In this document: positions 9,026-23,513 of the stretch, in pieces
Layout: each line of letters starts with the position of its first letter
Position numbering within the stretch: position 1 is the stretch's first letter
From: Gilliamella apicola
GTDB taxonomy: Bacteria; Pseudomonadota; Gammaproteobacteria; Enterobacterales; Orbaceae
Length of the DNA: 24,000 bases
Direction of reading: 5' to 3'
NCBI RefSeq assembly: GCF_003202915.1
Contig: NZ_QGLP01000005.1
Location: 326,721-350,720, forward strand
Position numbers and translations under genes: made by a program
The notes under the pieces: model-generated
Database searches by the model: none
What the model saw: only the letters and a program-made list of their open reading frames with translations
Told to the model about the DNA's origin: nothing

Positions 9026-10432
9026 ATAACGTGTCAGCATCAACAACATCATCTTCAACTGCTGGTTTTCGGGTAAAGTGAAAAATCGTAGCAATAATAA
9101 ATGCTCCGATGAACATATCAATCACATACCACAATGCACCTTTGGTTACAGCATCAAGTGTAACTAAACCACCAAATGCAACCAAGGAATCAATACTATT
9201 AATCATACCTAGCATACCCACAACTGCTATACCTACAACGATAGCGATAATAACTCGTTACGGATCTTTAATGGCGAATGGAATCGCGACTTCAGTACTA
9301 ACTGCTAAAGATAAAAAGAACGCAGTGATACCAAACTGTTTTTCTTCTTTGGTATTTTTAGAACGTGATACCAGTAAAGAGGATATTGCTAATCCTAAAA
9401 GAGGAATTGCACAGCACATACGGAGCTCGCCATTAGGACCATAAACACTTTCTGCCATAGCTGCTAACGTAAAGACGGTGGCAGCTTTACTACAAGGTCC
9501 ACCCATATCAATCGCAGCAAGCACACTGATTCCTATACCTAAAAATGCCGCATTAACTTCTGACATGACTTTTAAAGTTTTTACCATTACTTTTACAAAC
9601 CAATCAAGGGGATATGACAAATCTTAAATATAAATAGGCGTCATGACCAGTAATGTTACTGTTGGAATAATCATCACCGGCATAACCGAAGCAATAACCG
9701 GATGGAATTTAACGGTTTTAAACCATTTAACAAAATAGCCAATAAGGACACTGAAAATCATTGTACCAATAAAACCAGTAGATACATGATTACTGCCAAT
9801 TGGATTATTTACTACATTTCCCATAATAAACGCTGGTGCCAAGGGGGCATTACCACCAATAGAGTAAGCCATATAAGCCGCAAGCACTGGCACCATCATT
9901 GCGAAGCCGTAGAAAGCCACTTGTTGCAAATTGGCAAAGAATTGATTGCTTGGTAAAATAGCTTTTCCTACCACATGTCCAGTCATTAAAACGATTGAGA
10001 GAAGAATACCGGAAGCAATGATAGCCAGTAAAAATTTACTGATACCAGTATTTAACGATCTAAATATCTCTTTACCAATACTCTCTTTTACTTCTTTTGG
10101 GGATGATAAGGCTTCGGCATTATTAAAAATGTTAGCTGTATTTTTAACCGCTTCACTAGTGCTAACCTTAATCACCTTTTTAAAAGGTTCTAACAGTTCA
10201 GCATTATCGATTGAAATATCTGTCGCTAACAAAATTACATCAGCTCTTTTCAAATCTTTCTCAGTTAATACATTATCAATTCCAGCTGCTCCTTGGGTTT
10301 CAATCTTACAATCCCATCCTCACTGTTTAGCTTCATTTTCAATTTTTTGTTTAGCAATATAAGTATGGCCATTTCGGCAGAACAGGCACATATAGCAACA
10401 ATCTTTTTATTTTTTAAGGATTCTTTACTCAT
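9024..10432 (-). pseudogene. PTS fructose-family EIIBC component, disrupted (1 frameshift + 3 in-frame stops)
   Basis: Four ORF fragments together read as a Fru-type EIIB (KKIVAICACSAEMA/HTYIAKQ...GWDCKIETQGAAGIDNVLTEKDLKRADVILLATD) followed by an EIIC (AIDMGGPCSKAA, EVAIPFAIKDP*RVI...). Lesions are a -1 frameshift near 10367/10368, in-frame TGA at 10320-10322, in-frame TAA at 9624-9626, and in-frame TAA at 9258-9260 (DP*RVI where relatives have DPLRVI). All fragments downstream of the frameshift share one frame. Confidence 0.8.
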
Positions 10433-10862
10433 ATAAACCTCGGATTTTTTCTGCTACAATTTGTTGAATATCACTATTTAAAAGAACCCCAATAAAATTG
10501 TCATCAGCCAAGTTAGACGCCAATTTGGCAATAATTATTAAATGCTCTTTATTGGCATTTTGTGGTGCACCAATCAACACCATTAGCTTCACTTTATTGC
10601 CATTATTCCAGACTATCCCTTGATTATATTTTGCCACGACAATAAATGGTGTTTTCACTGCGTCACTTTTAGAATGCGGTAATGCAATATTGGGCAAAAC
10701 ATCAGTTTCCATCTCTTGCTCATGTTGCATGACATCATCAGAAAATTTATTTAAATCCCTTAAATATACTTTACTCTGTTCAGCCATCAATTTAATCACC
10801 AATGACTTATGTGAAATAACATCATTAGTTAATTCAACAGGTAAAATGGGAATTGGTTCCAT
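10425..10862 (-). CDS. PTS EIIA component, type 2 (fructose/mannitol/Ntr family)
   Basis: 145 aa with an ALPHSKS phosphorylation-site-like His and LMVLIGAP...HL, typical of EIIA-2. Its stop overlaps the EIIB start (ATGAGTAA). Confidence 0.8.
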   Translation of the reverse strand: MEPIPILPVELTNDVISHKSLVIKLMAEQSKVYLRDLNKFSDDVMQHEQEMETDVLPNIALPHSKSDAVKTPFIVVAKYNQGIVWNNGNKVKLMVLIGAPQNANKEHLIIIAKLASNLADDNFIGVLLNSDIQQIVAEKIRGLYE

Positions 10863-12625: not shown

Positions 12626-12656
12626 AATCCCGTCGACCTTTGGTCGACGGGATTTT
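12626..12656. terminator. Bidirectional rho-independent terminator between the convergent permease and HPr genes
   Basis: aatcccgtcgacc (12626-12638), ttt loop, ggtcgacgggatt (12642-12654): a perfect 13-bp stem. It is flanked by aaaa on the left and tttt on the right. Confidence 0.85.
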
Positions 12657-12699
12657 CATTTCTAAGTCAATAAAATAAGCTAGATAAAATTGCTTAAAA

Positions 12700-12963
12700 T
12701 TATTCACCAAAGCCAGTAGCAAATAATTCGCGAATTTCATCCATTGCTGCTTGTTCATCTTCACCATCACAGATGATTTCAACAGTTGAACCACCTTTAA
12801 CACCAGCTCCAAGTAATCCCATCATGCTTTTTAATTTAATGGCTTTATCGTTATAAACAAGTTCAATTGATGATTTATAACGGCCAGCTAATTTAACAAG
12901 CGTTGTTACCGGGCGTGCATGTAAACCAGTTGCATTTTTTACTACCATTTGCTCTTTTAACAT
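12700..12963 (-). CDS. HPr-family phosphocarrier protein
   Basis: 87 aa. Has NATGLHARP (His-15 site), KLKSMMGLLGAG (Ser-46 region) and EDEQAAMDEIRELF. AAGGA SD is present. No ptsI or crr gene is adjacent. Confidence 0.9.
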   Translation of the reverse strand: MLKEQMVVKNATGLHARPVTTLVKLAGRYKSSIELVYNDKAIKLKSMMGLLGAGVKGGSTVEIICDGEDEQAAMDEIRELFATGFGE

Positions 12964-13109: not shown

Positions 13110-14045
13110 CTAGTCCACCCAAAAATATCTCACTACATGAAAAAATATTGGTGCAGCAAAGCAGATAGAATCGAAGCGATCGAGTATACCACCATGGCCA
13201 TCGATAAGCCTTCCCCAATCTTTTACCCCTCGGTCACGTTTAATGGCTGACATCACTAATCCCCCCAGAAAGCCCAAAAGTGTAATCATTAATGAAATTA
13301 ATCCCGATTGCAGAAAAGTAAAAGGGGTGATCCAACACATGCACGCTCCAATAAAACTGGCAGATAAAAGGCCACCAATGAAACCTTCAATCGTTTTTGA
13401 TGGTGAGATATTCGGACTGATTTTATGTTTACCAAACAATTTACCAAAAACATATTGCAACACATCTGATAATTGAACGATTAACACCAAATAAGCAATT
13501 AACAACAAATTACGACCTTGATAATTTTCGATATCCAACACTAACAACGCCGGTACACATGAAATACAATAAACCGTAATCATCAATCCCCATTGCACAT
13601 CGGCTATTCTTTCTAAAAAATTACGAGTTGAAATCGTGGCGAATATCGCAAGGAACAAAAAGGCATACACTGGAATAAAAATACTGAATAAACCGTACCA
13701 CGCATAGGCGACTAAAATATATTGCGTTGGTAGAGCAATACCAAAAGCAAAAATCAGCACGCAATAATCGTAGCGATTGATCGGCGTTAAAATGAGAAAT
13801 TCACGCAATGCCACACCTGAAATAACAAAAAATAAAAAGATCACTGTCAGTTGCCCAAACCAAAAAGCAACCCCAATAATGGCAACCATTACCCACCATG
13901 CATTTATCCGAGTATTTAAATTATCGATAACACTATTGGGTGATTTACAACGAAATTTTAAAATTTGGCCAATTATTGTTGCGACTAACAAAAACAGGCC
14001 TATGCCCAAAAACAATAAACACGTATCATATTGATATTGGGACAT
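13110..14045 (-). CDS. ynbB: Phosphatidate cytidylyltransferase paralogue (CdsA family, YnbB-like)
   Basis: Track ORF trimmed to MSQYQYDTCLL... (ATG 14043-14045 preceded by AGGAGA). Multi-TM protein with the CDP-diglyceride synthase signature SAIKRDRGVKDWGRLIDGHGGILDRFDS. At 311 aa it compares with about 298 aa recalled for E. coli YnbB. Confidence 0.82.
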   Translation of the reverse strand: MSQYQYDTCLLFLGIGLFLLVATIIGQILKFRCKSPNSVIDNLNTRINAWWVMVAIIGVAFWFGQLTVIFLFFVISGVALREFLILTPINRYDYCVLIFAFGIALPTQYILVAYAWYGLFSIFIPVYAFLFLAIFATISTRNFLERIADVQWGLMITVYCISCVPALLVLDIENYQGRNLLLIAYLVLIVQLSDVLQYVFGKLFGKHKISPNISPSKTIEGFIGGLLSASFIGACMCWITPFTFLQSGLISLMITLLGFLGGLVMSAIKRDRGVKDWGRLIDGHGGILDRFDSICFAAPIFFHVVRYFWVD

Positions 14046-14085
14046 TTTAATTCTCCTAGGTGCAGTATTACTAGTTAATAACGGA

Positions 14086-14559
14086 TTAATTATTGATAAT
14101 AACATTAATAACCGCAAAAATGATTAAACAATTTTGCGCTAAAAATAAGATTATCTGCCTTTTAAACAACGATAAAACCCCTTTTTGGCGATCTGCAATG
14201 GTTCTTGAGGTAAATTGACTAGGCCTAATTAATTTTAAATTGGCTAACGCCCTATCCATCGCTAATAGTTCATCATACAAATGATCCACATGGTTAGTTA
14301 AGTGTTTAAACAATTTTCTATCAAACTCGATTCTTATAGCGTAATACTTACTTATTAAACCGAGAATAAAGATCATCAAACAAATAATGGTTAATGGTAT
14401 TGCCCAAGAACTCAGCAAGGCAACAAAAACAACTAACAACGATAATAGCATTGAAAAAATATCAATCTGTTTACTTAGCGACAAGAAACTACAAAACGTC
14501 ACTAAATCTATTTTAGTCATAGTATTTGTTGATGACCGGTTATTGTTACTACTTAACAT
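14086..14559 (-). CDS. Hypothetical small membrane protein (no family recognised)
   Basis: 157-aa ORF. Its ATG overlaps the ynbD stop (ATGTTAA). Has a hydrophobic hairpin (IFSMLLSLLVVFVALLSSWAIPLTIICLMIFILGLI), a charged helical middle and a hydrophobic C-terminus. The start could instead be the internal MTKIDLV. Confidence 0.55.
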   Translation of the reverse strand: MLSSNNNRSSTNTMTKIDLVTFCSFLSLSKQIDIFSMLLSLLVVFVALLSSWAIPLTIICLMIFILGLISKYYAIRIEFDRKLFKHLTNHVDHLYDELLAMDRALANLKLIRPSQFTSRTIADRQKGVLSLFKRQIILFLAQNCLIIFAVINVIINN

Positions 14560-15869
14560 GTCGTTGTCCCATCTTTAATGTTTGCCAACCAGTTAGCTAA
14601 AATTAGTTGTTGCTGATTAGAAATCACAATAGAATGCCGATGTTTTTTTACTTTATTGATAGCTTGTTGCAAATTGTTGACTTTTTTTGTCCATAACAAC
14701 CAAGCAACAACAGCGGTTGCACTTCTGGAATATCCCAAACCACAACAAACGAGTAATTTACCTTGTTGCCGATATTGTTCAATAATTTGCGCAGCTTGCT
14801 GACACTCCTTTTGCGAAAGTGGTGTCATATCTAAAACTGGAATGAGCGTATAAGTGCCTTTAAAATGACCAATTGGCAACTCGGCACACAAATCAACTAC
14901 TGATATAAAATGATGTTGGTTTAATGCGCTAGTTGACGGAATACGACCTAAATAGACGTCATCGGCTATCAAATCATCGGCTTGATGTCTAATTGTCCAT
15001 ATTCGCGAATTTAGCCACATAATAATAAAATACGGTAAATAAAGCAGATTTACGGCTAACTTAAAACGACCATTTTGCTGTTTTTGAAAACCTGAGGCAC
15101 CAAAAAATAGATAATTAACGGCAACCAATACCAAAGCGCCAGCCAACCATAATAACCAAAGCGCCCATCCAGAGAGATAGATAGCCATAGTAAGGGATAA
15201 CAGAGATAAGACCAGATAGACGATTGTCCAATGATAATTCAATGGCCGATATATTGATGGTGTCAGCCTATTATCAGGCCATAACCAAATGCACAAACAG
15301 CCTACCCATAATCCAGTCGGAATATCAAAAAAATGATGCTGCCATGTAGTTAAAACTGAAAGTGCAATTAAAAAACACCAAAAATGTAATATATAACGCC
15401 CTAATCGCCGAAAATATTGAGCATAAAATTGCCATAAAATAACTAATAATGTGATGTGTAATGAAGGAGCTTGATTGAAAGGCTTATCAAATCCCATTAA
15501 AATATCAAACAGTAAACCTAAAAATCCATTCAAAACGGGACGGTCAAAATAGAATTTAAGCGGAAAAAGTAAGAAGCAAATAATACAAACCATTTGCGCG
15601 GTTAATAGTCGCAAACCAAGAGTTTTTAGAGATTGCCAGGAAGATGTCAATAAAATAGCAAGACCATACATCAGATCGATAGACCAATAAGGCACAATCG
15701 TCCATGGCCAAAGTGGAATAGAATGTTCCCAACTAAAAAATAGACTCGGTACATCCTGACGTTGCGAAGTTAGCCAGTTAGCAAAATTATAACTGGCAAA
15801 AAAGAACAAAGACAAACCGGCTAACCACACACATTTATAAACATTTAGACGGTTGAATAGTTTTGGCAT
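14553..15869 (-). CDS. ynbD: Membrane PAP2-like domain fused to a dual-specificity (CX5R) phosphatase domain, YnbD-like
   Basis: Track ORF trimmed to MPKLFNRL... (ATG 15867-15869, 2 nt after the ynbC TGA). The N-terminal part has about 8 TM segments with PAP2-like motifs (APSLH, WQHHFFDIPTG). The C-terminal part has VCCGLGYSRS (CX5R). At 438 aa it compares with about 430 aa recalled for E. coli YnbD. Confidence 0.8.
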   Translation of the reverse strand: MPKLFNRLNVYKCVWLAGLSLFFFASYNFANWLTSQRQDVPSLFFSWEHSIPLWPWTIVPYWSIDLMYGLAILLTSSWQSLKTLGLRLLTAQMVCIICFLLFPLKFYFDRPVLNGFLGLLFDILMGFDKPFNQAPSLHITLLVILWQFYAQYFRRLGRYILHFWCFLIALSVLTTWQHHFFDIPTGLWVGCLCIWLWPDNRLTPSIYRPLNYHWTIVYLVLSLLSLTMAIYLSGWALWLLWLAGALVLVAVNYLFFGASGFQKQQNGRFKLAVNLLYLPYFIIMWLNSRIWTIRHQADDLIADDVYLGRIPSTSALNQHHFISVVDLCAELPIGHFKGTYTLIPVLDMTPLSQKECQQAAQIIEQYRQQGKLLVCCGLGYSRSATAVVAWLLWTKKVNNLQQAINKVKKHRHSIVISNQQQLILANWLANIKDGTTTC

Positions 15870-15871
15870 AA

Positions 15872-17620
15872 TCAATGCGAATTTCGTTGAGCGACAGAAA
15901 CCGTAAAAATGCCCCACTGATCGACCAACATAGTAACTTTGCTAAATCCCGCTTCCTCAACTAACTGATCCATCTCAAGTTGCGTTCGTCGTCGCATAAT
16001 CCACGGTTGTCCTTGCCGATGTGAAGTTAACGCTCTGGCAATAAATTCTAATTGCGGATGCCAAGGTTGATTAGTATAAATTAGATACCCACCATGTGGA
16101 ATCACATCGGCCAATCCTAATAAAGACTGGCGCAACAATTGATTATCACCAAATAATTCATATAATCCTGATACTACCGCTAAATTAGGTTTAGGTGATA
16201 ATTGTGAAAGCTCTTCACGACTAAAAGCATCGCCTTTTTCAAAACGGACAATATCACTCAACCCTTGTTGCGCAATCAGCGCTTGCCCATCACGGATATT
16301 AATATCACTATAATCTCGTAATAAAACCGAATTGGGTTTATGGGCTATTTGATTAATGGTTTCTAAAATATAGCGACCATGTCCTGCAGCAATATCAACA
16401 ATGTTAACTTGCTCAGATTGCTGTAACTGTTCAATGGTCTGTTTTAATAGTTGCTCTAGATGATTCTTGCGTTGTCGAATTCCTCGCCAACCAATTGATT
16501 GTAAATAGAGATAATCAAAAAAACGCCCAAGTTTAGAGGTTCCAGACGGTTCATTTCGATAGACATAATCAAGCGTACTGCCAGAATCGAAACCAGTTTC
16601 AAAACCCAGCTTAATACCATCCGACATTTTACTAGCATATTTTAAGGTTGATCTAACGAATTTCCAATACCATGGTTTGATCCAACCTGATGGAGGTAAA
16701 GCTAATCTATCGGTTTCCATTCGAGTATAACCAACCCGGTCGGCATTAGTTAACGGCGGAATATTCGGTTGATTCGCAAAACAGCCTTGAATAAACCGTC
16801 GAGCTTTAGCAATAGCCATATTTCGATCTTTCTCACCAAAGGTATCATGATAAAATTTTGGTAAAATATGGAACTCTTTTTGAATTGTTCCTAAATTATC
16901 ATAAAAGGCTTTTTGTGGTTTGCGGCGCACAACAAAATCAGAGCCAGAAACTAATAACTGAGTGGGTACAGTAATAGCATTGGCATCTTTAACAATACGA
17001 TCCGCTACCGCATAGAGGTCAAGTAGTAATCTGACGGAAATTGGTCGCGTAATTAAAGGATCTTTATTAAAAGAATCAGCGCGATTAGCATCATGGGTTA
17101 ACAAATTCGGTTTAACATAACTATTTACAAAGAAATTGCCTTTCAAGTTATACAATAAATTAAGTCCAGGTATTGCTAATGGAACATATAATTTAACGCT
17201 AAATGCTGGCGAACCTAACACTAATGCACGAACATTTGGCACATAATCATGTACCCAAGCGCTGGCAATTACCGCGCCAACACTTTGAGCAATAATGGCA
17301 ATATCTTGCATATTTAATGAATATTCTTCAATGATATGTTCAATAAAGCAATTAGCATCTTTAATTAGCGTAGCAAAATTAGGGGCATCACCGCGTTCAC
17401 CCTCCGATTGACCATTTCCTCTCGCATCCCATGCAAAAATATGAAAATCCGGCAACTCAAGTTCATCGGCTAAATGCGCCACTCGTCCAGAATGCTCATG
17501 ACCTCGATGAAAAAGCACAATTGCTTTTGAAGATGATTGGCTAGTGACGGCAGGCCAATAACGATAAAATAATTGACAACCATCATGGCTAATAAACATT
17601 TTTTGTTGTTCTTCTCGCAT
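15872..17620 (-). CDS. ynbC: Alpha/beta-hydrolase (lysophospholipase-like) fused to a class I SAM-dependent methyltransferase, YnbC-like
   Basis: 582 aa. The N-terminal half has VLFHRGHEHSGR and IIAQSVGA (nucleophile elbow). The C-terminal half has VDIAAGHGRY (SAM motif I) and LLRDYS. Compares with about 585 aa recalled for E. coli YnbC. Confidence 0.83.
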   Translation of the reverse strand: MREEQQKMFISHDGCQLFYRYWPAVTSQSSSKAIVLFHRGHEHSGRVAHLADELELPDFHIFAWDARGNGQSEGERGDAPNFATLIKDANCFIEHIIEEYSLNMQDIAIIAQSVGAVIASAWVHDYVPNVRALVLGSPAFSVKLYVPLAIPGLNLLYNLKGNFFVNSYVKPNLLTHDANRADSFNKDPLITRPISVRLLLDLYAVADRIVKDANAITVPTQLLVSGSDFVVRRKPQKAFYDNLGTIQKEFHILPKFYHDTFGEKDRNMAIAKARRFIQGCFANQPNIPPLTNADRVGYTRMETDRLALPPSGWIKPWYWKFVRSTLKYASKMSDGIKLGFETGFDSGSTLDYVYRNEPSGTSKLGRFFDYLYLQSIGWRGIRQRKNHLEQLLKQTIEQLQQSEQVNIVDIAAGHGRYILETINQIAHKPNSVLLRDYSDINIRDGQALIAQQGLSDIVRFEKGDAFSREELSQLSPKPNLAVVSGLYELFGDNQLLRQSLLGLADVIPHGGYLIYTNQPWHPQLEFIARALTSHRQGQPWIMRRRTQLEMDQLVEEAGFSKVTMLVDQWGIFTVSVAQRNSH

Positions 17621-17642
17621 AGCTTATTCCTTTTATTTCCTT

Positions 17643-18260
17643 TTATTCCTTTTTATTTTTTGATTCTTGTAATCCTTTTTTAACTCTATTAACTACCGTA
17701 ATTAATAGCAAAAAGGTAATAAGCCACAGTAGTGTATTAAGCCAATCAAGTGGCAACAAAGAGGTAGCGATACCTAAACTTATTAGGCTAAAAACAAAAG
17801 CCCGATCGCTTTTACCCATGGGGCCATCATAACGCCGTGAACTACCAATCATCATGCCGAGTACACCTGCATACTCAGTTAAGAATGATAACAAAATGAC
17901 TATAATCACTAGATTAACATGGATCTGATTTAATTGAGTAAAAATTAATAGTAATGCAGAATCTGAAACCACATCACAGATCTCATTTAAATACGCACCA
18001 AGATTCGATTTTTGGTTATATTCTCGGGCTAGCATGCCATCAATAGCATTGAGTGCCATCCGAATAAACATCCAGATCGGTATTAAGCCAAACAACCATT
18101 GATGATCAGCAAAATAGCCAACTAACAAAGCAATTAATATCGAACCTGCACAAGCGGTTAGTGTGACCTGATTCGCGGTAATATGTGATGCATATAACGA
18201 TGTTACATAAGGACGAAGCAGTGCTTGAAAGCGCGATTTTAATTGATAGATTGAAAACAC
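17643..18260 (-). CDS. ynbA: CDP-alcohol phosphatidyltransferase family protein, YnbA-like
   Basis: 205 aa with a GTG start preceded by AAGGAAGGA. The motif NAIDGMLAREYNQKSNLGAYLNEICDVVSD matches the variant CDP-OH-P-transferase motif I recall for E. coli YnbA (NALDGMLARE...GDVISD). Multi-TM. Confidence 0.83.
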   Translation of the reverse strand: MFSIYQLKSRFQALLRPYVTSLYASHITANQVTLTACAGSILIALLVGYFADHQWLFGLIPIWMFIRMALNAIDGMLAREYNQKSNLGAYLNEICDVVSDSALLLIFTQLNQIHVNLVIIVILLSFLTEYAGVLGMMIGSSRRYDGPMGKSDRAFVFSLISLGIATSLLPLDWLNTLLWLITFLLLITVVNRVKKGLQESKNKKE

Positions 18261-18288: not shown

Positions 18289-21200
18289 TTAAACAATACG
18301 TTGTAACTGGGCATACTTTAATGAACTTACCATAAAATGCAAACGGTTGAGAACATTAACCTCACCAGCACCATCATCAAAATCCAAATAGAGCAGATTC
18401 AGTTTTGGATTAAGATCGCGCATGCGCTTCTCCACTCCTTTAGACACAACATGATTAGCAATACAACCAAATGGCTGCAAGCTAATGACATTATTAATGC
18501 CATGCTCAGCAAAGGTCATAATACCTGCAGGTATTAACCAACCTTCACCATATTGATTCGCCAAATTCAGGATTTCTTGTGCTTTTTTCGCCATATCACG
18601 AATATTGTGGAATGGTTGATAATTTTTAAAACCAGACAAAATCTGATTAGTTTGCTCAATATACTTTTGTGCCACCTTCTCAAAAAAATGTACAAAGTAA
18701 GTCACAAAACTTTTGTTAACAATATAATTATCAACATTACTATCATAGTTAACAAAACACTGAGCAAAAAACTCAATCATTGGTGGAATTATTGGCTCAA
18801 TCCCCTGTTCAACAAGCCAGTCAACACTATGTTGATTACCAAAACTGTTATATTTAACGTAAATTTCACCAACAATCCCAATTTGCGGGCAATCCTTATT
18901 TAACGTCTCGATTTGATTAAAATGATCGACCGCTTCTTTTAACAACGCAAAGATCGCCTTTTTGCCTTTGTGTTGATTGATAAGATGTTGTAACTTTCTA
19001 ATATAAAGCTCTTTCAATTGGTTAGCTTGTTGTTTAAATTTGGCTCTAGGCGCAATCGAGTAGAACATCTTCGAAATCGAATCAGCAAATAACATCGCAA
19101 AAAACGTAGTTGGTAAAGTTTTTAGCCAATTAATTTTAAAACCTGGTTGCTCAATTTCATTAATATTACCGGTACTGAGCGACACGATAGGTATATCTTC
19201 GAAACCATTACTAATCATGGCTTTCTTAATCAAAGAAAGATAACTACTCGCTCGACACTGTCCACCCGTTTGAGTAATGCCGATAGCCACCTCATCACGT
19301 TGATATTTACCTGAATTAAGCGCCTTAATTATGTCACCTACAATAATGGTCGCTGGATAGCAAATCTCATTGTTACAATACTTTAATCCCCATTCGACCG
19401 AACTTTTATCTGGTTTTGGCAAAGTCTCAAGCTTATAGCCTGACAAAGCAAAAATTGGCGGTAATAATGGTGAATAAAAATCGGAGATATAAGGTGCTAA
19501 AATAGTCCGTCGCTGTTTATCTTGTTTAGCAAAAATAGCCGTCTTTTTACGCTCAACCACATTTAATGGTAGTTGGTGATTCATACGGATTGACTCAATA
19601 ATCGAACGTAAACGCAAACGCACCGAACCCGTTGCGGTGATCTCATCGACTCGAATTATTGTACAGGTCTTATCTTTTGACTCTAAAATCGCCTTACACT
19701 CATCGGTCACAATCGCATCAGGACCGCAACCAAATGAATTAAGTTGTACGAACTGAATATTTTTGGGTTGCTCAGCAACAAAACTCGCAGCAGCATATAA
19801 ACGGTTTGGATAACTCCATTGCGAACAGATTTGCAACTCAGGGGATAATTGATTAATCACTCCTAATACTGAATCCTCGGTTATCACATCACAACCTAAG
19901 GCATTTAAAATCTCTGGGGTTTTATGATTGATTAAACTATCGCTATGGTAAGGACGACCAGCCAAAATGAACACATATCGCCCCGTCTCTTTAGCATTAT
20001 TCAACACCTCAACTGCCTTGTTGTACAGCGAGTGTTTATATTCAGCTTGAGCAGCTAATGCATCAGAAAATGCTTGATTAGCTATCTTTTCAGTAATACC
20101 AAGCGAAGTTAAATAATTAATACAGCCCTTTTTCAATAATTTCTGATCACTAAAATTGATTACCGGATAATCCAACGGTACATTGTATTTGGTCTGCGGA
20201 TTGATAGCACTATTTACCACCTCAGCATAACTACTCACAATTGGGCAGTTATAACTATTAACGGCATTATCAAAATGGTCAGCCTCAAACACCACCATCG
20301 GCATAAAAATACGATCAACCTTCTGTTCGATCAGTTCCATAATATGCCCATGTACCAGTTTGGCAGGAAAACAGATACTATCCGACATCACCGTACCTGC
20401 CCCTTTCTCGTAGATATCGTGGGTAGAATATGGCGAAAGTGTCACATTAATTCCACTATTGGTTAACAAGGTATGCCAGAACGGAAAATTTTCATATTGA
20501 CCTAAAACACGAGGAATACCGATATTAAGCTTAGATTCAGCATTATGGATATTGGTTCGATCAAATAACAACGCATTTTTATAGTCAAACATATTAAATG
20601 CATTTTTATCTTGATATTGATTATTACTTAAAAAGCGTTCGCATTTATTACCAGAATAATAACGCTGACCATTAGCAAAACGATAAATCATAATATCGCA
20701 TTTATTTTCACATCCCTTACAGCGTGAAGGCTTGGCCTTATTATCTTCGGCTTTTTGTAGATTATCTAAACCAATAAATTGTGATGGAGTTTGATCTTGC
20801 TGATAGTGATTTTTCGCCACTAATGCCGCACCATAAGCACCCATCAACTCAGGAATATTAGAACTGGCAATCTGTGCACCAGTCAACTGCTCTAAAGCTC
20901 GAAATACCGCCGGATTCTTAAAAGTTCCGCCTTGCACCACAATATGATCGCCCAATTTACGCATATCATGTAATTTAAGTACCTTATGAATAGCATTTTT
21001 AATCACCGAAAAAGCTAGACCCGCTGAAATATCGCCCATAGTGGCATTTTCACGCAGAGCCTGTTTCACTTTAGAGTTCATAAACACTGTACAGCGTGTG
21101 CCCAAATCACAAGGATTGTTAGATTTACACGCTGCATCAGCAAAATCGATGGTATTGGAATTAAGGGATTTAGCAAAAGTCTCAATAAACGAACCACAAC

Positions 21201-22563
21201 CCGATGAACAAGCTTCATTTAACTCAATATGATTTACCACGCCATTAGCGATAAAAATAGCCTTCATATCTTGACCGCCAATATCCATGATAAAACTCAC
21301 CTTAGGATCGATATGTTTAGCCGCAGCAAAGTGAGCCATCGTCTCAACTAAACCATCATCGATAGCAAAAGCAGCTTTCAACAACTCCTCACCATAACCG
21401 GTAACTCCACTGCGAGCAATCACAATGTCTTTACCAGATGCCGCAATCTCATCCTTAAGTACGGTTAAACCTTTAATAAGTGCGGTAATTGAGTGACCGT
21501 TATTTGGTGCATAATAAGTAAAAAGCAGTTCATCATCTTCACTAGTCAAGGTAATTTTAGTGGTAGTTGAACCACTGTCGATACCTAAATAAGCATTTTG
21601 CTTTTGATAAGCACTTAAAGCTAAGCGAGGAATTTCAATATATTTGCGTTTTTGTTGCCAATCAGCAAAAGATAACGACTGATTAAATAATGGTTTTAAG
21701 CGAAAAGATTGATTAACTTGAATTTTAGTTGACGCATTTAACCTATCGATAAAATCATTTAGCTTGAGCTCACTACGCTCAATAGCATGAATTGCCGCCC
21801 CCCAAGCTGACAATAAAGTAGGATGCTCGGTGGTAACTATCTGATCTTCATTTAACTTTAGTGTTTCTAAAGCCGCTCTGCCTAACGTTGGAATAAACGA
21901 AAACGGTCCGCCAATCAACATTACTTTGGGAACAATATCATAACCACGCGCTAGCGTATTAACCAATTGAATACAAACCGCATGTAATACAGAATAAGCA
22001 ATATTTTCTTTGGAGACATTACGGCTAATTAAATTTTGCACATCGGTTTTGGCAAACACGCCACAGCGTGAAGCGATTGGATAGAGTTTATCATGTTTAG
22101 TTGCCAGCAGATCAAACTCCTGCACAGGGGTATTAAGCAAGGTTGCCATCTGATCTATAAAGGCACCTGTGCCACCGGCACAACTACCATTCATACGAAT
22201 ATCTGGTGGACGATCAGGAAAAAAGAAGATCATCTTACTATCTTCACCGCCAATATCGATTAACGTTCTAACCTCTGGATATTTGCGCTGCACCACTTCC
22301 GATGCGGCGACCACCTCTTGAATAAAGGCGATATCGGCTTTTTCCGAAATACCCATCCCAGCAGAACCAGTTACTTTCACGGATAACGTAACATCATCAC
22401 CAGTTTGCTGTTTAATTTCATCTAAAAGGGATAAAACGGTAGGTACAATATGGGTGTTATGACGAACATAATTGGTATAAATAAAATTATCCTGTTCGTC
22501 AAGCACGACACACTTAGCTGTCGTAGAACCAACATCCAATCCAAGTCTATACATTTTTGGCAT
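18289..22563 (-). CDS. Giant fusion of two BcrAD/BadFG (HgdC-type) activase ATPase modules with 2-hydroxyacyl-CoA-dehydratase-like/DUF2229-like modules; PlsA-PlsR (anaerobic plasmalogen synthase)-like
   Basis: 1424-aa uninterrupted ORF. Module 1 reads LGLDVGSTTAKCVV...DIGGEDSK...GSCAGGTGAFIDQ...ASRCGVFAKTDV. Module 2 reads LGIDSGSTTTKITL...DIGGQDMK...EACSSGCGSFIE...GTRCTVFMNSKV. A Cys cluster RCKGCENKCD...NKCERF follows (about 20638-20724). Two HAD-like regions come next (IGIPRVLGQYENFPFW...; ...NEICYPATIIVGD...TGGQCRASSY...). ORF confidence is high. The plasmalogen-synthase assignment is only moderate. Confidence 0.9.
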   Translation of the reverse strand: MPKMYRLGLDVGSTTAKCVVLDEQDNFIYTNYVRHNTHIVPTVLSLLDEIKQQTGDDVTLSVKVTGSAGMGISEKADIAFIQEVVAASEVVQRKYPEVRTLIDIGGEDSKMIFFFPDRPPDIRMNGSCAGGTGAFIDQMATLLNTPVQEFDLLATKHDKLYPIASRCGVFAKTDVQNLISRNVSKENIAYSVLHAVCIQLVNTLARGYDIVPKVMLIGGPFSFIPTLGRAALETLKLNEDQIVTTEHPTLLSAWGAAIHAIERSELKLNDFIDRLNASTKIQVNQSFRLKPLFNQSLSFADWQQKRKYIEIPRLALSAYQKQNAYLGIDSGSTTTKITLTSEDDELLFTYYAPNNGHSITALIKGLTVLKDEIAASGKDIVIARSGVTGYGEELLKAAFAIDDGLVETMAHFAAAKHIDPKVSFIMDIGGQDMKAIFIANGVVNHIELNEACSSGCGSFIETFAKSLNSNTIDFADAACKSNNPCDLGTRCTVFMNSKVKQALRENATMGDISAGLAFSVIKNAIHKVLKLHDMRKLGDHIVVQGGTFKNPAVFRALEQLTGAQIASSNIPELMGAYGAALVAKNHYQQDQTPSQFIGLDNLQKAEDNKAKPSRCKGCENKCDIMIYRFANGQRYYSGNKCERFLSNNQYQDKNAFNMFDYKNALLFDRTNIHNAESKLNIGIPRVLGQYENFPFWHTLLTNSGINVTLSPYSTHDIYEKGAGTVMSDSICFPAKLVHGHIMELIEQKVDRIFMPMVVFEADHFDNAVNSYNCPIVSSYAEVVNSAINPQTKYNVPLDYPVINFSDQKLLKKGCINYLTSLGITEKIANQAFSDALAAQAEYKHSLYNKAVEVLNNAKETGRYVFILAGRPYHSDSLINHKTPEILNALGCDVITEDSVLGVINQLSPELQICSQWSYPNRLYAAASFVAEQPKNIQFVQLNSFGCGPDAIVTDECKAILESKDKTCTIIRVDEITATGSVRLRLRSIIESIRMNHQLPLNVVERKKTAIFAKQDKQRRTILAPYISDFYSPLLPPIFALSGYKLETLPKPDKSSVEWGLKYCNNEICYPATIIVGDIIKALNSGKYQRDEVAIGITQTGGQCRASSYLSLIKKAMISNGFEDIPIVSLSTGNINEIEQPGFKINWLKTLPTTFFAMLFADSISKMFYSIAPRAKFKQQANQLKELYIRKLQHLINQHKGKKAIFALLKEAVDHFNQIETLNKDCPQIGIVGEIYVKYNSFGNQHSVDWLVEQGIEPIIPPMIEFFAQCFVNYDSNVDNYIVNKSFVTYFVHFFEKVAQKYIEQTNQILSGFKNYQPFHNIRDMAKKAQEILNLANQYGEGWLIPAGIMTFAEHGINNVISLQPFGCIANHVVSKGVEKRMRDLNPKLNLLYLDFDDGAGEVNVLNRLHFMVSSLKYAQLQRIV

Positions 22564-22647: not shown

Positions 22648-22653
22648 ATTATA
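22648..22653 (-). promoter_or_regulatory. Candidate -10 box (TATAAT) for the lipid operon
   Basis: The minus strand reads cgcTATAATaa, about 85 nt upstream of ATG 22563. No good -35 hexamer at 16-18 bp spacing (attaaa/gattaa). Confidence 0.3.
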
Positions 22654-22750
22654 GCGAAATCTTTCAAATTTTTAATCAATTTGTTTGGGAAATGACATTT
22701 TTGGATGTTTTTTAACTAACAGAAACTAAAGAAAATAACTCTTATTGGCA

Positions 22751-23467
22751 CTAATCCTGCGCCAAACCATGCTTAGCAATAGCGATCACATTCTTCAAAT
22801 CGACACCTTGGGTTTTTGCCGCAAAAATACAACCGCAATAGCATTGACGATAAACATCGTACTCCTTACAAAGCTCGATAGAACGCTTATAACCGTTATT
22901 CTTCTTAAAATCAGAAGGTAAATAATTAACGGAAAAAATCTCCTGTATCTCAAAACCAAGTTGGTTAATTTTTTGACTATTCTTTTTAGGACTCAGTGTT
23001 AATGCACTGGCAAAATAGTCAAAACCCAACTCCTGCGCCTTAATTGCAGCCAAATCTAAGCGCATCTTATAACAAAGATGACAACGCTCTCCACCTTCTG
23101 GCGCATCACGCAAATGCTCCACCTGCTTAATAAACTCAGCCGGTTGGTAAGGAGCTTCTAAAAACTGTACATGGTTATTGGTCTTTTGATTAAAGTCGGC
23201 AATAAACTTCTGCTGAACCTTACTGCGATATTCATATTCTACACGGGGGTGAATATTGGAATTAGCAAAATAAATCGTAATATCGGCATACTGCGCCAAA
23301 TACTCCAACACATAAGTACTACACGGGGCACAGCAACTATGAATTAACAATTTTGGCCGAGCCGACGCCAACTGCCAATCAGCAATTACCTCTTGCAAAA
23401 TCGAATCATAATTCACTTTATTATGTGGATTTAATTTTTCGAGAATATCTTTGGCATTGATTAACAT
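22751..23467 (-). CDS. queH: Epoxyqueuosine reductase QueH (DUF208 family)
   Basis: 238 aa. Has LLIHSCCAPCSTY, ERCHLCYKMRL and CYCGCIF cysteine motifs characteristic of QueH. Confidence 0.88.
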   Translation of the reverse strand: MLINAKDILEKLNPHNKVNYDSILQEVIADWQLASARPKLLIHSCCAPCSTYVLEYLAQYADITIYFANSNIHPRVEYEYRSKVQQKFIADFNQKTNNHVQFLEAPYQPAEFIKQVEHLRDAPEGGERCHLCYKMRLDLAAIKAQELGFDYFASALTLSPKKNSQKINQLGFEIQEIFSVNYLPSDFKKNNGYKRSIELCKEYDVYRQCYCGCIFAAKTQGVDLKNVIAIAKHGLAQD

Positions 23468-23513
23468 TGGGACTCTTTCAAGTATCAGGCTGATTGATGA
23501 ATTTTAAGGCGCG

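What the first reader, a model, noticed from the sequence alone, without database searches (positions are those of the whole stretch)
18289..22563. Single-polypeptide double-activase plus dehydratase-like enzyme with both [4Fe-4S] ligand pairs retained
Seen: both ASKHA ATPase modules keep two cysteines spaced exactly 39 residues apart by my count (SCAGGTG...SRCGVF and EACSSGCG...TRCTVF). As I recall, this is the same spacing as the cluster ligands Cys127/Cys166 of Acidaminococcus HgdC. There the [4Fe-4S] cluster bridges a homodimer. Here the tandem fusion could form an intramolecular pseudo-dimer. A further CxxCxxxC...C motif (RCKGCENKCD...NKCERF) links to two HAD-like halves. Such oxygen-sensitive machinery sits next to aerobic-type housekeeping genes in an AT-rich gammaproteobacterium. 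That placement suggests an anaerobic or micro-oxic lifestyle adaptation, or horizontal acquisition.
Basis: partly seen in the sequence, partly recalled or inferred. Interest (0 to 1): 0.65.

Follow-up and report, generated by a model that had tools for sequence, protein, structure and literature searches.

The report
Bee-gut bacterium's plasmalogen synthase gene
The gene is a real, intact, single-chain version of the oxygen-sensitive iron-sulfur enzyme (PlsA) that anaerobic bacteria use to turn ordinary membrane lipids into vinyl-ether lipids (plasmalogens); it is a new member of a known enzyme family, found here in the bee-gut bacterium Gilliamella.

Summary
ORF 18289-22563 (-) encodes 1,424 aa with two HgdC-like ATPase modules. 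Each keeps both [4Fe-4S] ligand cysteines, 39 residues apart, and these align without gaps to HgdC Cys127/Cys166. The C-x2-C-x3-C...C motif is present. Two homologous C-terminal halves each carry three invariant Cys.

It is a fused PlsA-PlsR anaerobic plasmalogen synthase. It is 41% identical over 1,423 aligned residues to the E. faecalis-type PlsA. It is 41% and 32% identical, in the same order, to PlsA and PlsR of a C. perfringens relative. All 15 candidate metal-binding Cys are invariant in 123 sequences. dN/dS is about 0.05.

The host is Gilliamella apicola, a gut facultative anaerobe, so the setting is not paradoxical. The nearest relatives outside Orbaceae are Bacteroidales-labelled (52-67%). 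This suggests an old transfer, because codon usage is ordinary.

One unreported feature: in Gilliamella only, the gene lies 28 nt upstream of an E. coli ynbABCD-like phospholipid operon.

Verdict: new member of a known kind, modest interest. The product (vinyl or saturated ether) and the Cys juxtaposition remain untested.

The parts
18289..22563 (-). plsA-type gene: fused PlsA-PlsR anaerobic plasmalogen synthase, 1,424 aa
   Evidence: ORF. 41% identity over 1,423 aa with 3% gaps to the E. faecalis-type PlsA. 41% over residues 5-992 to Clostridium PlsA and 32% over residues 1005-1419 to PlsR. dN/dS 0.047-0.077 against Orbaceae orthologs.
21790..22548 (-). Act1: first HgdC-like ASKHA ATPase module (residues 6-258), with cluster ligands Cys128 (22180-22182) and Cys167 (22063-22065)
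   Evidence: TIGR00241/BcrAD_BadFG hits. Aligns to HgdC 1HUX at E 2.8e-24 with Cys128/167 on Cys127/166. Both Cys are invariant in 123 sequences.
20809..21588 (-). Act2: second HgdC-like ATPase module (residues 326-585), with Cys452 (21208-21210) and Cys491 (21091-21093); Cys456 is also invariant
   Evidence: BcrAD_BadFG residues 326-583. HgdC alignment E 6e-28 with both Cys in register. Act1 and Act2 are 29% identical. Conservation.
20641..20721 (-). Linker Cys4 motif C615-x2-C618-x3-C622-x18-C641: an extra metal site of undetermined type
   Evidence: Motif located. All four Cys are invariant, including in the E. faecalis-type and Clostridium PlsA. The AF2 model shows short beta strands here at low confidence (pLDDT 55-64).
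19588..20535 (-). Red1: first reductase/dehydratase-like half (residues ~677-992; DUF2229 at 681-899), with invariant Cys731, Cys773, Cys946
   Evidence: Pfam DUF2229, E 7e-76. Colinear with the C-terminal part of Clostridium PlsA. Conservation. Fold matches to HAD/BCR/DCCP.
18307..19551 (-). Red2: second half (residues 1005-1419), equivalent to the separate PlsR protein, with Cys1068 and Cys1103 invariant and Cys1367 99% conserved
   Evidence: 32% identity to PlsR across its whole length. Homologous to Red1 with the three Cys aligned pairwise (hhalign E 1.8e-5). Conservation.
22648..22675 (-). Promoter-like site TTAAAA-16-TATAAT in the 187-nt gap between queH and plsA
   Evidence: Consensus scan, 10 of 12 matches; sequence read. 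This is a consensus match only, and the region holds no more such sites than shuffles do. No FNR-like box lies in the gap.
17643..18260 (-). ynbA-like CDP-alcohol phosphatidyltransferase; starts 28 nt after the plsA stop with its own Shine-Dalgarno (AGGAAGG)
   Evidence: Pfam and NCBIfam hits. 48% identity to E. coli YnbA. Junction sequence read. No terminator-like site on the coding strand at the junction.
13110..17620 (-). Rest of the downstream co-oriented cluster: ynbC-like (15872-17620), ynbD-like (14553-15917), orf157 membrane protein (14086-14559), ynbB/CdsA-like (13110-14117)
   Evidence: Pfam hits. 52%, 38% and 36% identity to E. coli YnbC, YnbD and YnbB. ORFs overlap or abut. Same order in Gilliamella sp. 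wkB308.

Best explanation
The ORF encodes the single-chain (PlsA-PlsR fused) form of the anaerobic plasmalogen synthase of Gilliamella apicola. Proposed mechanism follows, with shown and inferred steps marked. Shown: the two N-terminal HgdC-like ATPase modules (Act1, Act2) each keep the two Cys that in HgdC bind the [4Fe-4S] cluster bridging the homodimer. Inferred: within one chain they form a pseudo-dimer around one bridging cluster. That cluster takes an electron from reduced ferredoxin or flavodoxin. ATP hydrolysis then drives the electron at very low potential, possibly through the invariant Cys4 site in the linker, into the C-terminal catalytic part. Shown: that part consists of two homologous halves (Red1 = DUF2229 region; Red2 = PlsR equivalent) with a HAD/BCR/double-cubane-protein fold, each with three conserved Cys at equivalent positions. 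Inferred from the family, as described in PMC8788747, PMC9702350 and PMC10191378: the sn-1 acyl ester of a finished diacyl glycerophospholipid (PE or PG) is reduced in two one-electron steps, protonated and dehydrated to a 1-O-alk-1'-enyl (vinyl ether) bond. The enzyme should be active mainly at low oxygen. The gene is old in Orbaceae and under strong purifying selection. In Gilliamella it has been moved to the head of a ynbA-ynbC-ynbD-orf157-ynbB phospholipid cluster, with which it is probably co-transcribed.
For: Architecture: 2x BcrAD_BadFG + DUF2229 + PlsR-like tail. This matches the Act1-Act2-Red1-Red2 scheme given for characterised PlsA (PMC12838417), and gene sizes are comparable (4,275 bp here, against 4,248 and 4,311 bp). 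Reference sequences were recovered with the published cloning primers. The window protein is 41% identical, end to end and colinear, to the E. faecalis-type PlsA and colinear with PlsA then PlsR of a C. perfringens relative. The reference loci fit their descriptions. The spans are 4,248 bp and 4,199 bp. A divergent TetR gene lies upstream, as described for EF1326/EF1327. GC is 37.5% and 27.7%. Cluster ligands align to HgdC Cys127/166 in both modules. Fifteen Cys are conserved across 123 sequences. Red1 and Red2 are homologous with Cys in register. Fold matches are to 3O3M, 8S02, 6ENO and 7YZM at probability 1.00. dN/dS is 0.047-0.077. Heterologous expression of fused plsA genes from facultative anaerobes gives plasmalogens in E. 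coli (PMC12838417). About 15% of sequenced Bacteroidota, the phylum of the nearest relatives, carry PlsA/PlsR homologues, and some Bacteroides make plasmalogens (PMC10191378).
Against: There are no lipid data for Gilliamella or any Orbaceae in the searchable literature. Identity to tested enzymes is only about 40%, and the same family contains Ger, which makes saturated alkyl ethers. No Ger sequence was available for comparison. The Clostridium reference is a relative (Clostridium sp. LIBA-8841), not strain HN13: the reverse primer has 4 of 22 mismatches. The E. faecalis-type reference is an unnamed metagenome contig. The Pfam HGD-D model and a PDB profile search do not detect the catalytic halves. 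No FNR-like site or TetR regulator that would indicate oxygen control lies upstream. Juxtaposition of the four Act Cys was not measured. The AF2 model of residues 1-600 has pTM 0.73, and its dips in confidence lie mostly around the Cys loops.
Confidence: 0.72

Rival explanations
1. It is a Ger-type glycerol ester reductase. The machinery is the same, but the product is a saturated sn-1 alkyl ether rather than a vinyl ether.
For: Ger (Tmari_0479, SHJ90043) is a 'modified PlsA' that shares the conserved BBD core (two BcrAD_BadFG plus DUF2229). It works only anaerobically in E. coli, and homologs are reported in Proteobacteria and the FCB group.
Against: The Ger architectures are described with extra small DUF2229/HGD-D segments (BBDHDDH, BBDHDHDH). 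This protein gives no HGD-D hit even at E<=10 and has the plain layout of the E. faecalis-type PlsA. It is colinear at 41% with plasmalogen-producing enzymes. Plasmalogens are reported in certain gut Bacteroides, and about 15% of sequenced Bacteroidota, the phylum of the nearest relatives, carry PlsA/PlsR homologues. No Ger sequence could be fetched, so the comparison is indirect.
Confidence: 0.12
2. It is a self-activating 2-hydroxyacyl-CoA dehydratase or aryl-CoA reductase-like enzyme acting on a soluble CoA thioester, as the database name 'acyl-CoA dehydratase activase-related protein' implies.
For: Source annotations. The ATPase modules are closest to the HgdC, HadI and MbdQ/P activators. 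The catalytic halves share the HAD/BCR fold.
Against: No sequence-level match to any HAD or BCR catalytic subunit, and only 10-14% identity in the fold matches. By contrast, end-to-end colinearity with enzymes shown to act on phospholipids is clear (PMC12838417). No CoA-ligase, CoA-transferase or fermentation genes are nearby. The neighbours are phospholipid genes.
Confidence: 0.04
3. In Gilliamella the enzyme is dedicated to the neighbouring Ynb pathway. The six genes form one operon, and PlsA converts the still-unidentified YnbA/B/C/D lipid product or its precursor into an ether form, rather than acting on bulk PE/PG.
For: The gap is 28 nt, the genes share a strand, ynbA has its own Shine-Dalgarno, and there is no terminator-like site on the coding strand at the junction. 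The arrangement is conserved in Gilliamella sp. wkB308, where PlsA is 86% identical. The five downstream genes are a self-contained CDP-diacylglycerol-type head-group pathway.
Against: The linkage is confined to Gilliamella. Orbus, Zophobihabitans, Utexia and two metagenomic Orbaceae keep plsA alone next to a DEAD-helicase/AhpC locus. Orbus keeps ynbA-C-D-orf152 elsewhere. Bacteroidales homologs are stand-alone. The nearest YnbC relatives outside Orbaceae include Pseudomonas, which I know as aerobes. E. coli has ynbABCD, and BL21(DE3) is reported to encode no plsA or plsR. Tested PlsA enzymes accept the host's ordinary PE.
Confidence: 0.12

Closest known systems
Single-gene PlsA plasmalogen synthase of facultative anaerobes (E. 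faecalis EF1327 / plsA K-4, L. cremoris plsA; PMC12838417, PMC9702350)
   Same: Same length class (1,424 against 1,415 aa). Same Act1-Act2-Cys4 linker-Red1-Red2 order. 41% identity over the whole chain with 3% gaps. All 15 conserved Cys are shared.
   Different: The host is a gammaproteobacterium (Orbaceae) rather than a Firmicute. No divergent TetR regulator lies upstream (queH instead). Here the gene is followed at 28 nt by a ynbABCD-like cluster. Activity is untested.
Clostridium perfringens PlsA (CPE1194) + PlsR (CPE1195), the founding two-gene system (Jackson et al. 2021, as cited in PMC12838417, PMC9702350 and PMC10191378)
   Same: Residues 5-992 match PlsA (41%) and residues 1005-1419 match PlsR (32%), in the same order.
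   Different: The two proteins are fused into one chain here. The comparison used the orthologous pair of a close relative (Clostridium sp. LIBA-8841), not strain HN13 or strain 13 itself.
Ger, glycerol ester reductase ('modified PlsA'; T. maritima Tmari_0479, D. alkenivorans SHJ90043; PMC13159169)
   Same: Same BBD core and the same expected ATP-driven low-potential reduction of the sn-1 ester. Active anaerobically only.
   Different: Ger yields saturated alkyl ethers and is described with additional small D/H segments, which were not detected here. No sequence comparison was possible.
2-hydroxyacyl-CoA dehydratases with their activators (HgdC/HgdAB, HadI/HadBC), class I benzoyl-CoA reductases (Bzd, Mbd) and the double-cubane cluster protein with its reductase
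   Same: The ATPase modules align at E 1e-17 to 1e-28 with cluster Cys in register. The catalytic halves share the fold.
   Different: The catalytic halves have no detectable sequence similarity to these enzymes. All parts are in one polypeptide. The substrate in tested relatives is a membrane phospholipid, not a CoA ester.
E. coli ynbABCD operon (for the downstream genes)
   Same: Orthologous proteins: YnbA 48%, YnbC 52%, YnbD 38%, YnbB 36%.
   Different: The order is A-C-D-orf157-B, with an extra small membrane protein. It is preceded by plsA, which BL21(DE3) is reported not to encode. The function of the operon is unsettled. Only YnbB has been studied, as an auxiliary CdsA paralog in MPIase glycolipid synthesis (PMC6362211).

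Membership tests
PlsA/PlsR anaerobic plasmalogen synthase | Two tandem BcrAD_BadFG (HgdC-like) activation modules at the N-terminus | tested here: met
   Pfam PF01869 with two stretches; TIGR00241 at residues 6-258 and a second module at 326-585. The modules are 29% identical to each other.
PlsA/PlsR anaerobic plasmalogen synthase | Both modules keep the two [4Fe-4S] ligand cysteines | tested here: met
   Cys128/167 and Cys452/491 align to HgdC Cys127/166. They are invariant in 123 sequences, including the reference PlsA proteins.
PlsA/PlsR anaerobic plasmalogen synthase | DUF2229-type reduction domain followed by a PlsR-equivalent second half, colinear with a tested enzyme over the full length | tested here: met
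   DUF2229 E 7e-76. 41% over 1,423 aa to the E. faecalis-type PlsA. PlsA then PlsR in the same order.
PlsA/PlsR anaerobic plasmalogen synthase | Converts diacyl glycerophospholipid to the 1-alk-1'-enyl form in vivo or on heterologous expression | not testable with these tools
   Needs lipid analysis. No lipid data for Orbaceae were found.
PlsA/PlsR anaerobic plasmalogen synthase | TetR/AcrR regulator directly upstream (reported for facultative anaerobes; an accessory feature, not a defining one) | tested here: not met
   The upstream gene is queH, co-oriented. The E. faecalis-type locus does have the TetR gene (PMC9702350).
2-hydroxyacyl-CoA dehydratase / benzoyl-CoA reductase catalytic subunits (Pfam HGD-D) | Significant match to the HGD-D model or to solved HAD/BCR subunits by sequence | tested here: not met
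   No HGD-D hit at E<=10. A profile search of the PDB gives nothing below E 0.4.
2-hydroxyacyl-CoA dehydratase / benzoyl-CoA reductase catalytic subunits (Pfam HGD-D) | Shared fold of the two catalytic halves, each with three Cys for a cluster | tested here: met
   Foldseek probability 1.00 to 3O3M_B/D, 8S02_B, 6ENO and 7YZM_A, with TM (target-normalised) 0.44-0.48. Three conserved Cys per half at equivalent positions. Whether these Cys coincide with the cluster ligands of the solved structures was not checked.
Ger glycerol ester reductase | BBD core plus extra small DUF2229/HGD-D segments (BBDHDDH-type), and closer relation to Tmari_0479/SHJ90043 than to tested PlsA | tested here: inconclusive
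   The BBD core is present, with a weak second DUF2229 stretch and no HGD-D segment.
E. coli YnbABCD (downstream genes) | Orthologs of all four proteins in one co-oriented cluster | tested here: met
   BLASTP 48/52/38/36% over nearly full lengths, against the annotated K-12 genes.

The most novel reading that the evidence does not exclude
In Gilliamella a rearrangement placed plsA at the head of the ynbA-ynbC-ynbD-orf157-ynbB cluster. A single low-oxygen transcript would then couple ether-bond formation to the still-uncharacterised Ynb phospholipid pathway. The Ynb product or its CDP-diacylglycerol-derived precursor would be made as a plasmalogen. That would give the first functional handle on the ynbABCD operon and the first plasmalogen-producing gammaproteobacterium.
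Probability: 0.12. Interest if true: 0.55.

Novelty: new member of a known kind. Interest (0 to 1): 0.3.

Why it matters
If the enzyme is active, Gilliamella and other Orbaceae would be plasmalogen (or alkyl-ether) producers. These are core members of bee and other insect gut communities. Such lipids have not been reported for them in the literature I could search, and they are rare in Gammaproteobacteria. They would bear on membrane adaptation to the low-oxygen, acidifying gut and possibly on host-microbe lipid exchange. The Bacteroidales-like affinity of the gene adds a case of old inter-phylum transfer of a large Fe-S enzyme between gut bacteria. The Gilliamella-specific junction with a ynbABCD-like cluster offers a cheap experimental route (one RT-PCR and two knock-outs) to test whether that poorly understood operon has anything to do with ether lipids. 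None of this changes what is known about the enzyme family itself.

Tried and rejected
1. Pfam HGD-D on the whole protein and on the C-terminal 825 aa at E<=10 gave no hit.
2. A profile of the catalytic halves against all PDB sequences gave nothing below E 0.4. The dehydratase likeness therefore rests on the fold search and on internal hhalign.
3. Test for recent HGT by composition: GC (0.381), GC3 (0.321) and RSCU correlation (0.87) of plsA are like topA and the other window genes. Recent transfer is rejected.
4. Oxygen-responsive regulation: no FNR-like box (TTGAT-N4-ATCAA, up to 2 mismatches) in the 187-nt upstream gap. No TetR gene upstream. No Rfam family anywhere in the window.
5. Conserved plsA-ynb linkage was looked for in five other Orbaceae loci and two Bacteroidales loci and found only in Gilliamella. 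It is not a general operon.
6. Literature: the original Jackson et al. 2021 paper is not held. Searches for Gilliamella/Orbaceae with plasmalogen or DMA gave nothing relevant.
7. The C. perfringens forward primer matched two other Clostridium genomes in the species-representative collection. The reverse primer shows 4 of 22 mismatches there, and the E. faecalis reverse primer differs by one A in a homopolymer run. The references are close orthologs, not the exact cloned alleles.
8. Cys juxtaposition: the AF2 model of residues 1-600 was obtained (pLDDT 87.9, pTM 0.73), but no coordinates are returned, so distances could not be measured.
9. Relic or pseudogene reading rejected: the ORF is intact, all ligand Cys are conserved, and dN/dS is about 0.05.

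Full report
**1. The observation**

All six quoted motifs are present. Cys128/Cys167 and Cys452/Cys491 are each 39 residues apart.

Searches of the whole protein and of residues 1-300 against PDB sequences give HgdC (1HUX), HadI (4EHT), MbdQ/MbdP (9GAI) and the double-cubane protein reductase (7YYL), at E 1e-16 to 1e-28. In the printed alignments, Cys452/491 and Cys128/167 fall on HgdC Cys127/Cys166 with no intervening gap. The two modules are 29% identical to each other, with the Cys in register. The equal spacing is therefore inherited, not coincidental.

In a MAFFT alignment of 123 sequences (the window protein, its 120 best database relatives and two reference PlsA systems), 14 of the 27 Cys are invariant and one more (Cys1367) is 99% conserved:
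- Act1: 128, 167
- Act2: 452, 456, 491
- Linker: 615, 618, 622, 641
- Red1: 731, 773, 946
- Red2: 1068, 1103, 1367

The remaining 12 Cys vary.

**2. Domain content**

Pfam gives BcrAD_BadFG twice and DUF2229 (residues 681-899). NCBIfam gives the acyl-CoA dehydratase activase domain. It gives only a sub-threshold hit (E 0.012) on the E. faecalis-type PlsA and none on PlsR. A profile of the C-terminal part finds nothing in the PDB by sequence.

The 'two HAD-like halves' are nevertheless real. Profiles of residues ~660-1000 and ~1005-1424 align to each other (hhalign E 1.8e-5, 305 columns), with Cys731/1068, Cys773/1103 and Cys946/1367 paired.

An AlphaFold2 model of residues 600-1424 (51-sequence alignment, pLDDT 84.1, pTM 0.82) was searched against the PDB. 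Its only probability-1.00 matches are 2-hydroxyisocaproyl-CoA dehydratase (3O3M_B/D), BzdNO (8S02_B) and the double-cubane cluster protein (6ENO, 7YZM_A). TM scores are about 0.45-0.48 per target and identity is 10-14%.

**3. What it is**

The literature describes the anaerobic plasmalogen synthase as a BCR/HAD-family enzyme. In C. perfringens it is encoded by plsA-plsR, and in E. faecalis, L. cremoris and B. longum by one gene of 4.2-4.9 kb. Its domains are named Act1, Act2, Red1 and Red2 (PMC12838417; PMC9702350; PMC10191378).

To compare sequences I used the published cloning primers (Table S6) as exact search patterns.
- The C. perfringens forward primer hit two Clostridium genomes. In L010 it starts a 975-aa ORF followed by a 420-aa ORF, spanning 4,199 bp, the length reported for CPE1194/1195.
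- The E. faecalis forward primer hit ten metagenome contigs. In L011 it starts a 4,248-bp gene, the reported length of plsA K-4.
- The sister locus L015 has a divergent TetR gene upstream, as described for EF1326/EF1327.
- GC contents fit: 37.5% and 27.7%.
- The reverse primers match with a one-base difference (E. faecalis) and with 4 of 22 mismatches (Clostridium). The references are therefore an E. faecalis-type allele and the ortholog of a close C. perfringens relative.

The window protein is 41% identical to the E. faecalis-type PlsA over 1,423 aligned positions with 3% gaps. It is 41% identical to Clostridium PlsA over residues 5-992 and 32% identical to PlsR over residues 1005-1419. It is thus a colinear PlsA-PlsR fusion.

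**4. Host, age and origin**

The best relatives are Gilliamella (86-96%), Orbus (80-81%), Zophobihabitans (79%) and Utexia (73%), all in Orbaceae. The neighbouring YnbC-like protein is 97-100% identical to G. apicola entries. MatP, CysB and TopA in the window fit an Enterobacterales-like gammaproteobacterium.

To my knowledge Gilliamella is a bee-gut facultative anaerobe/microaerophile, so an oxygen-sensitive enzyme there is not paradoxical. Fused plsA genes are already known in facultative anaerobes.

Outside Orbaceae, the next relatives are four sequences at 64-67% identity, one from a MAG labelled Prevotellaceae. After them come 95 sequences at 52-57%; every one of those that carries a name is labelled Bacteroidales, Bacteroidia or Bacteroidetes. 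In a neighbour-joining tree rooted on the Firmicute references, the Orbaceae group is sister to those four sequences. No other gammaproteobacterium appears among the 120 best hits.

This points to an inter-phylum transfer. The sampling (best hits only, few names) does not fix the direction. The transfer is old, for three reasons:
- The gene occupies a conserved DEAD-helicase/AhpC/MiaB/MatE locus in Orbus, Zophobihabitans, Utexia and two metagenomic Orbaceae.
- Its GC, GC3 and codon usage are like those of topA and the other window genes.
- dN/dS against Gilliamella wkB308 and Orbus orthologs is 0.047 and 0.077, with dS near saturation.

**5. Surroundings**

Upstream lies queH, co-oriented, with a 187-nt gap. 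The gap holds a promoter-like TTAAAA-16-TATAAT and no FNR-like box.

Downstream, 28 nt after the stop codon and preceded by AGGAAGG, a run of five co-oriented, abutting or overlapping genes begins:
- A CDP-alcohol phosphatidyltransferase
- A hydrolase/Methyltransf_20 fusion
- A PAP2 + dual-specificity phosphatase
- A 157-aa membrane protein with no family match
- A CdsA-like cytidylyltransferase

Four of these are orthologs of E. coli YnbA, YnbC, YnbD and YnbB (48, 52, 38 and 36% identity). No terminator-like site lies on the coding strand at the plsA-ynbA junction.

The order queH-plsA-ynbA-C-D-orf-B is the same in Gilliamella sp. wkB308. The linkage is nonetheless specific to Gilliamella. 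Other Orbaceae and the Bacteroidales keep plsA alone. Orbus wheelerorum has ynbA-C-D-orf152 next to nrdAB. The nearest YnbC relatives outside Orbaceae include Pseudomonas, which I know as aerobes.

Only YnbB has been studied experimentally, as an auxiliary CdsA paralog in MPIase synthesis (PMC6362211). Co-transcription in Gilliamella is likely. Functional coupling is possible but weakly supported.

**6. Mechanism**

Shown here:
- Two ATPase modules with conserved ASKHA phosphate motifs and both cluster-ligand pairs.
- An invariant Cys4 motif between them and the catalytic part.
- Two homologous catalytic halves with three conserved Cys each and a HAD/BCR/DCCP fold.

Inferred from the families (my own knowledge, except the chemistry of the last step):
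- In HgdC the [4Fe-4S] cluster bridges a homodimer through Cys127/Cys166.
- Class I BCR uses a heterodimeric ATPase pair.
- HAD subunits bind [4Fe-4S] clusters through three Cys each.
- The double-cubane protein binds [8Fe-9S] through six Cys.
- The plasmalogen chemistry is as summarised in PMC8788747: two one-electron reductions, protonation and dehydration of the sn-1 ester.

On this basis the chain folds so that Act1 and Act2 share one cluster. ATP hydrolysis then sends electrons, perhaps through the Cys4 site, to the Red1/Red2 clusters, where the sn-1 ester of a finished phospholipid becomes a vinyl ether.

The spacing C-x2-C-x3-C-x18-C recalls, from memory, the [4Fe-4S] motif of molybdopterin oxidoreductases. 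That is a lead, not a test; a zinc site is equally possible.

The AF2 model of residues 1-600 is confident (pLDDT 87.9, pTM 0.73). Its dips in local confidence lie mostly around residues 121-140, 161-180, 451-470 and 491-510, the Cys loops. That is what one expects where a cofactor is missing. No coordinates are available, so the juxtaposition remains untested.

**7. Rivals**

- The family also contains Ger, which gives saturated alkyl ethers. The plain BBD layout and the colinearity with plasmalogen-forming enzymes favour PlsA. No Ger sequence could be compared, so I leave 0.12 on this rival.
- A CoA-ester dehydratase role, as the database names suggest, is unlikely: there is no sequence match to HAD/BCR catalytic subunits, and the relatives that have been tested act on phospholipids.
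- A relic is excluded by conservation and dN/dS.

**8. Verdict**

The finding is real and was read correctly. The gene is a fused PlsA-PlsR plasmalogen synthase ortholog, a kind described in 2021 and extended to facultative anaerobes since then. It is a new member of a known kind, in a lineage (Orbaceae) for which I found no ether-lipid report.

The points worth keeping are the Bacteroidales-like affinity and the Gilliamella-specific junction with a ynbABCD-like cluster. Interest: 0.3.

Noticed in passing
window 13110-18260 (-): This is a complete ynbABCD-like phospholipid gene cluster in the order ynbA, ynbC, ynbD, orf157, ynbB. Its proteins are 36-52% identical to the E. coli proteins. It starts 28 nt after plsA. 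The function of this operon is still unsettled, even in E. coli.
   Followed up: partly
window 14086-14559 (-); also L006 18030-18515 and L024 12052-12510: A small (152-161 aa) hydrophobic protein with no family match sits after ynbD in Gilliamella and Orbus, but has no counterpart in the E. coli operon. It may be a lineage-specific extra component of the Ynb system.
   Followed up: partly
window 9258-10862 (-): A fructose-type PTS EIIA gene (145 aa) is followed by three short co-oriented ORFs (55, 209 and 120 aa). The 209-aa ORF matches only part of a IIBC subunit. This looks like a fragmented, probably decaying PTS gene. The segment is absent at the same place in Gilliamella sp. wkB308.
   Followed up: no
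window 12626-12963: An HPr-like 87-aa ORF (12700-12963, -) has a near-consensus promoter-like site (12993-12964). It is followed by a strong 13-bp-stem bidirectional terminator (12626-12654), shared with the convergent amino-acid permease gene.
   Followed up: no
window 22751-23467 (-): queH (epoxyqueuosine reductase) lies directly upstream of plsA in both Gilliamella loci examined. From general knowledge it is another Fe-S enzyme. A weak FNR-like half-palindrome (TTGATGAATTTTAA, 23494-23507) lies just upstream of queH, with 2 mismatches. It is not distinguishable from chance.
   Followed up: no
L001 10001-14281 and L002 5251-9531: The closest non-Orbaceae PlsA relatives (64-67% identity) come from a MAG labelled Prevotellaceae and from unnamed metagenome contigs with about 38-40% GC. 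They are closer to the Orbaceae proteins than to the other 95 Bacteroidales-type hits (54-55%). Their true taxonomy and habitat would decide the direction of the transfer.
   Followed up: partly
L005, L007, L008, L022, L023 (upstream of plsA): In the non-Gilliamella Orbaceae, plsA is divergently adjacent to a DEAD-box helicase and an AhpC peroxiredoxin gene. An oxygen-labile enzyme next to a peroxide-detoxifying enzyme may be coincidence or shared regulation.
   Followed up: no
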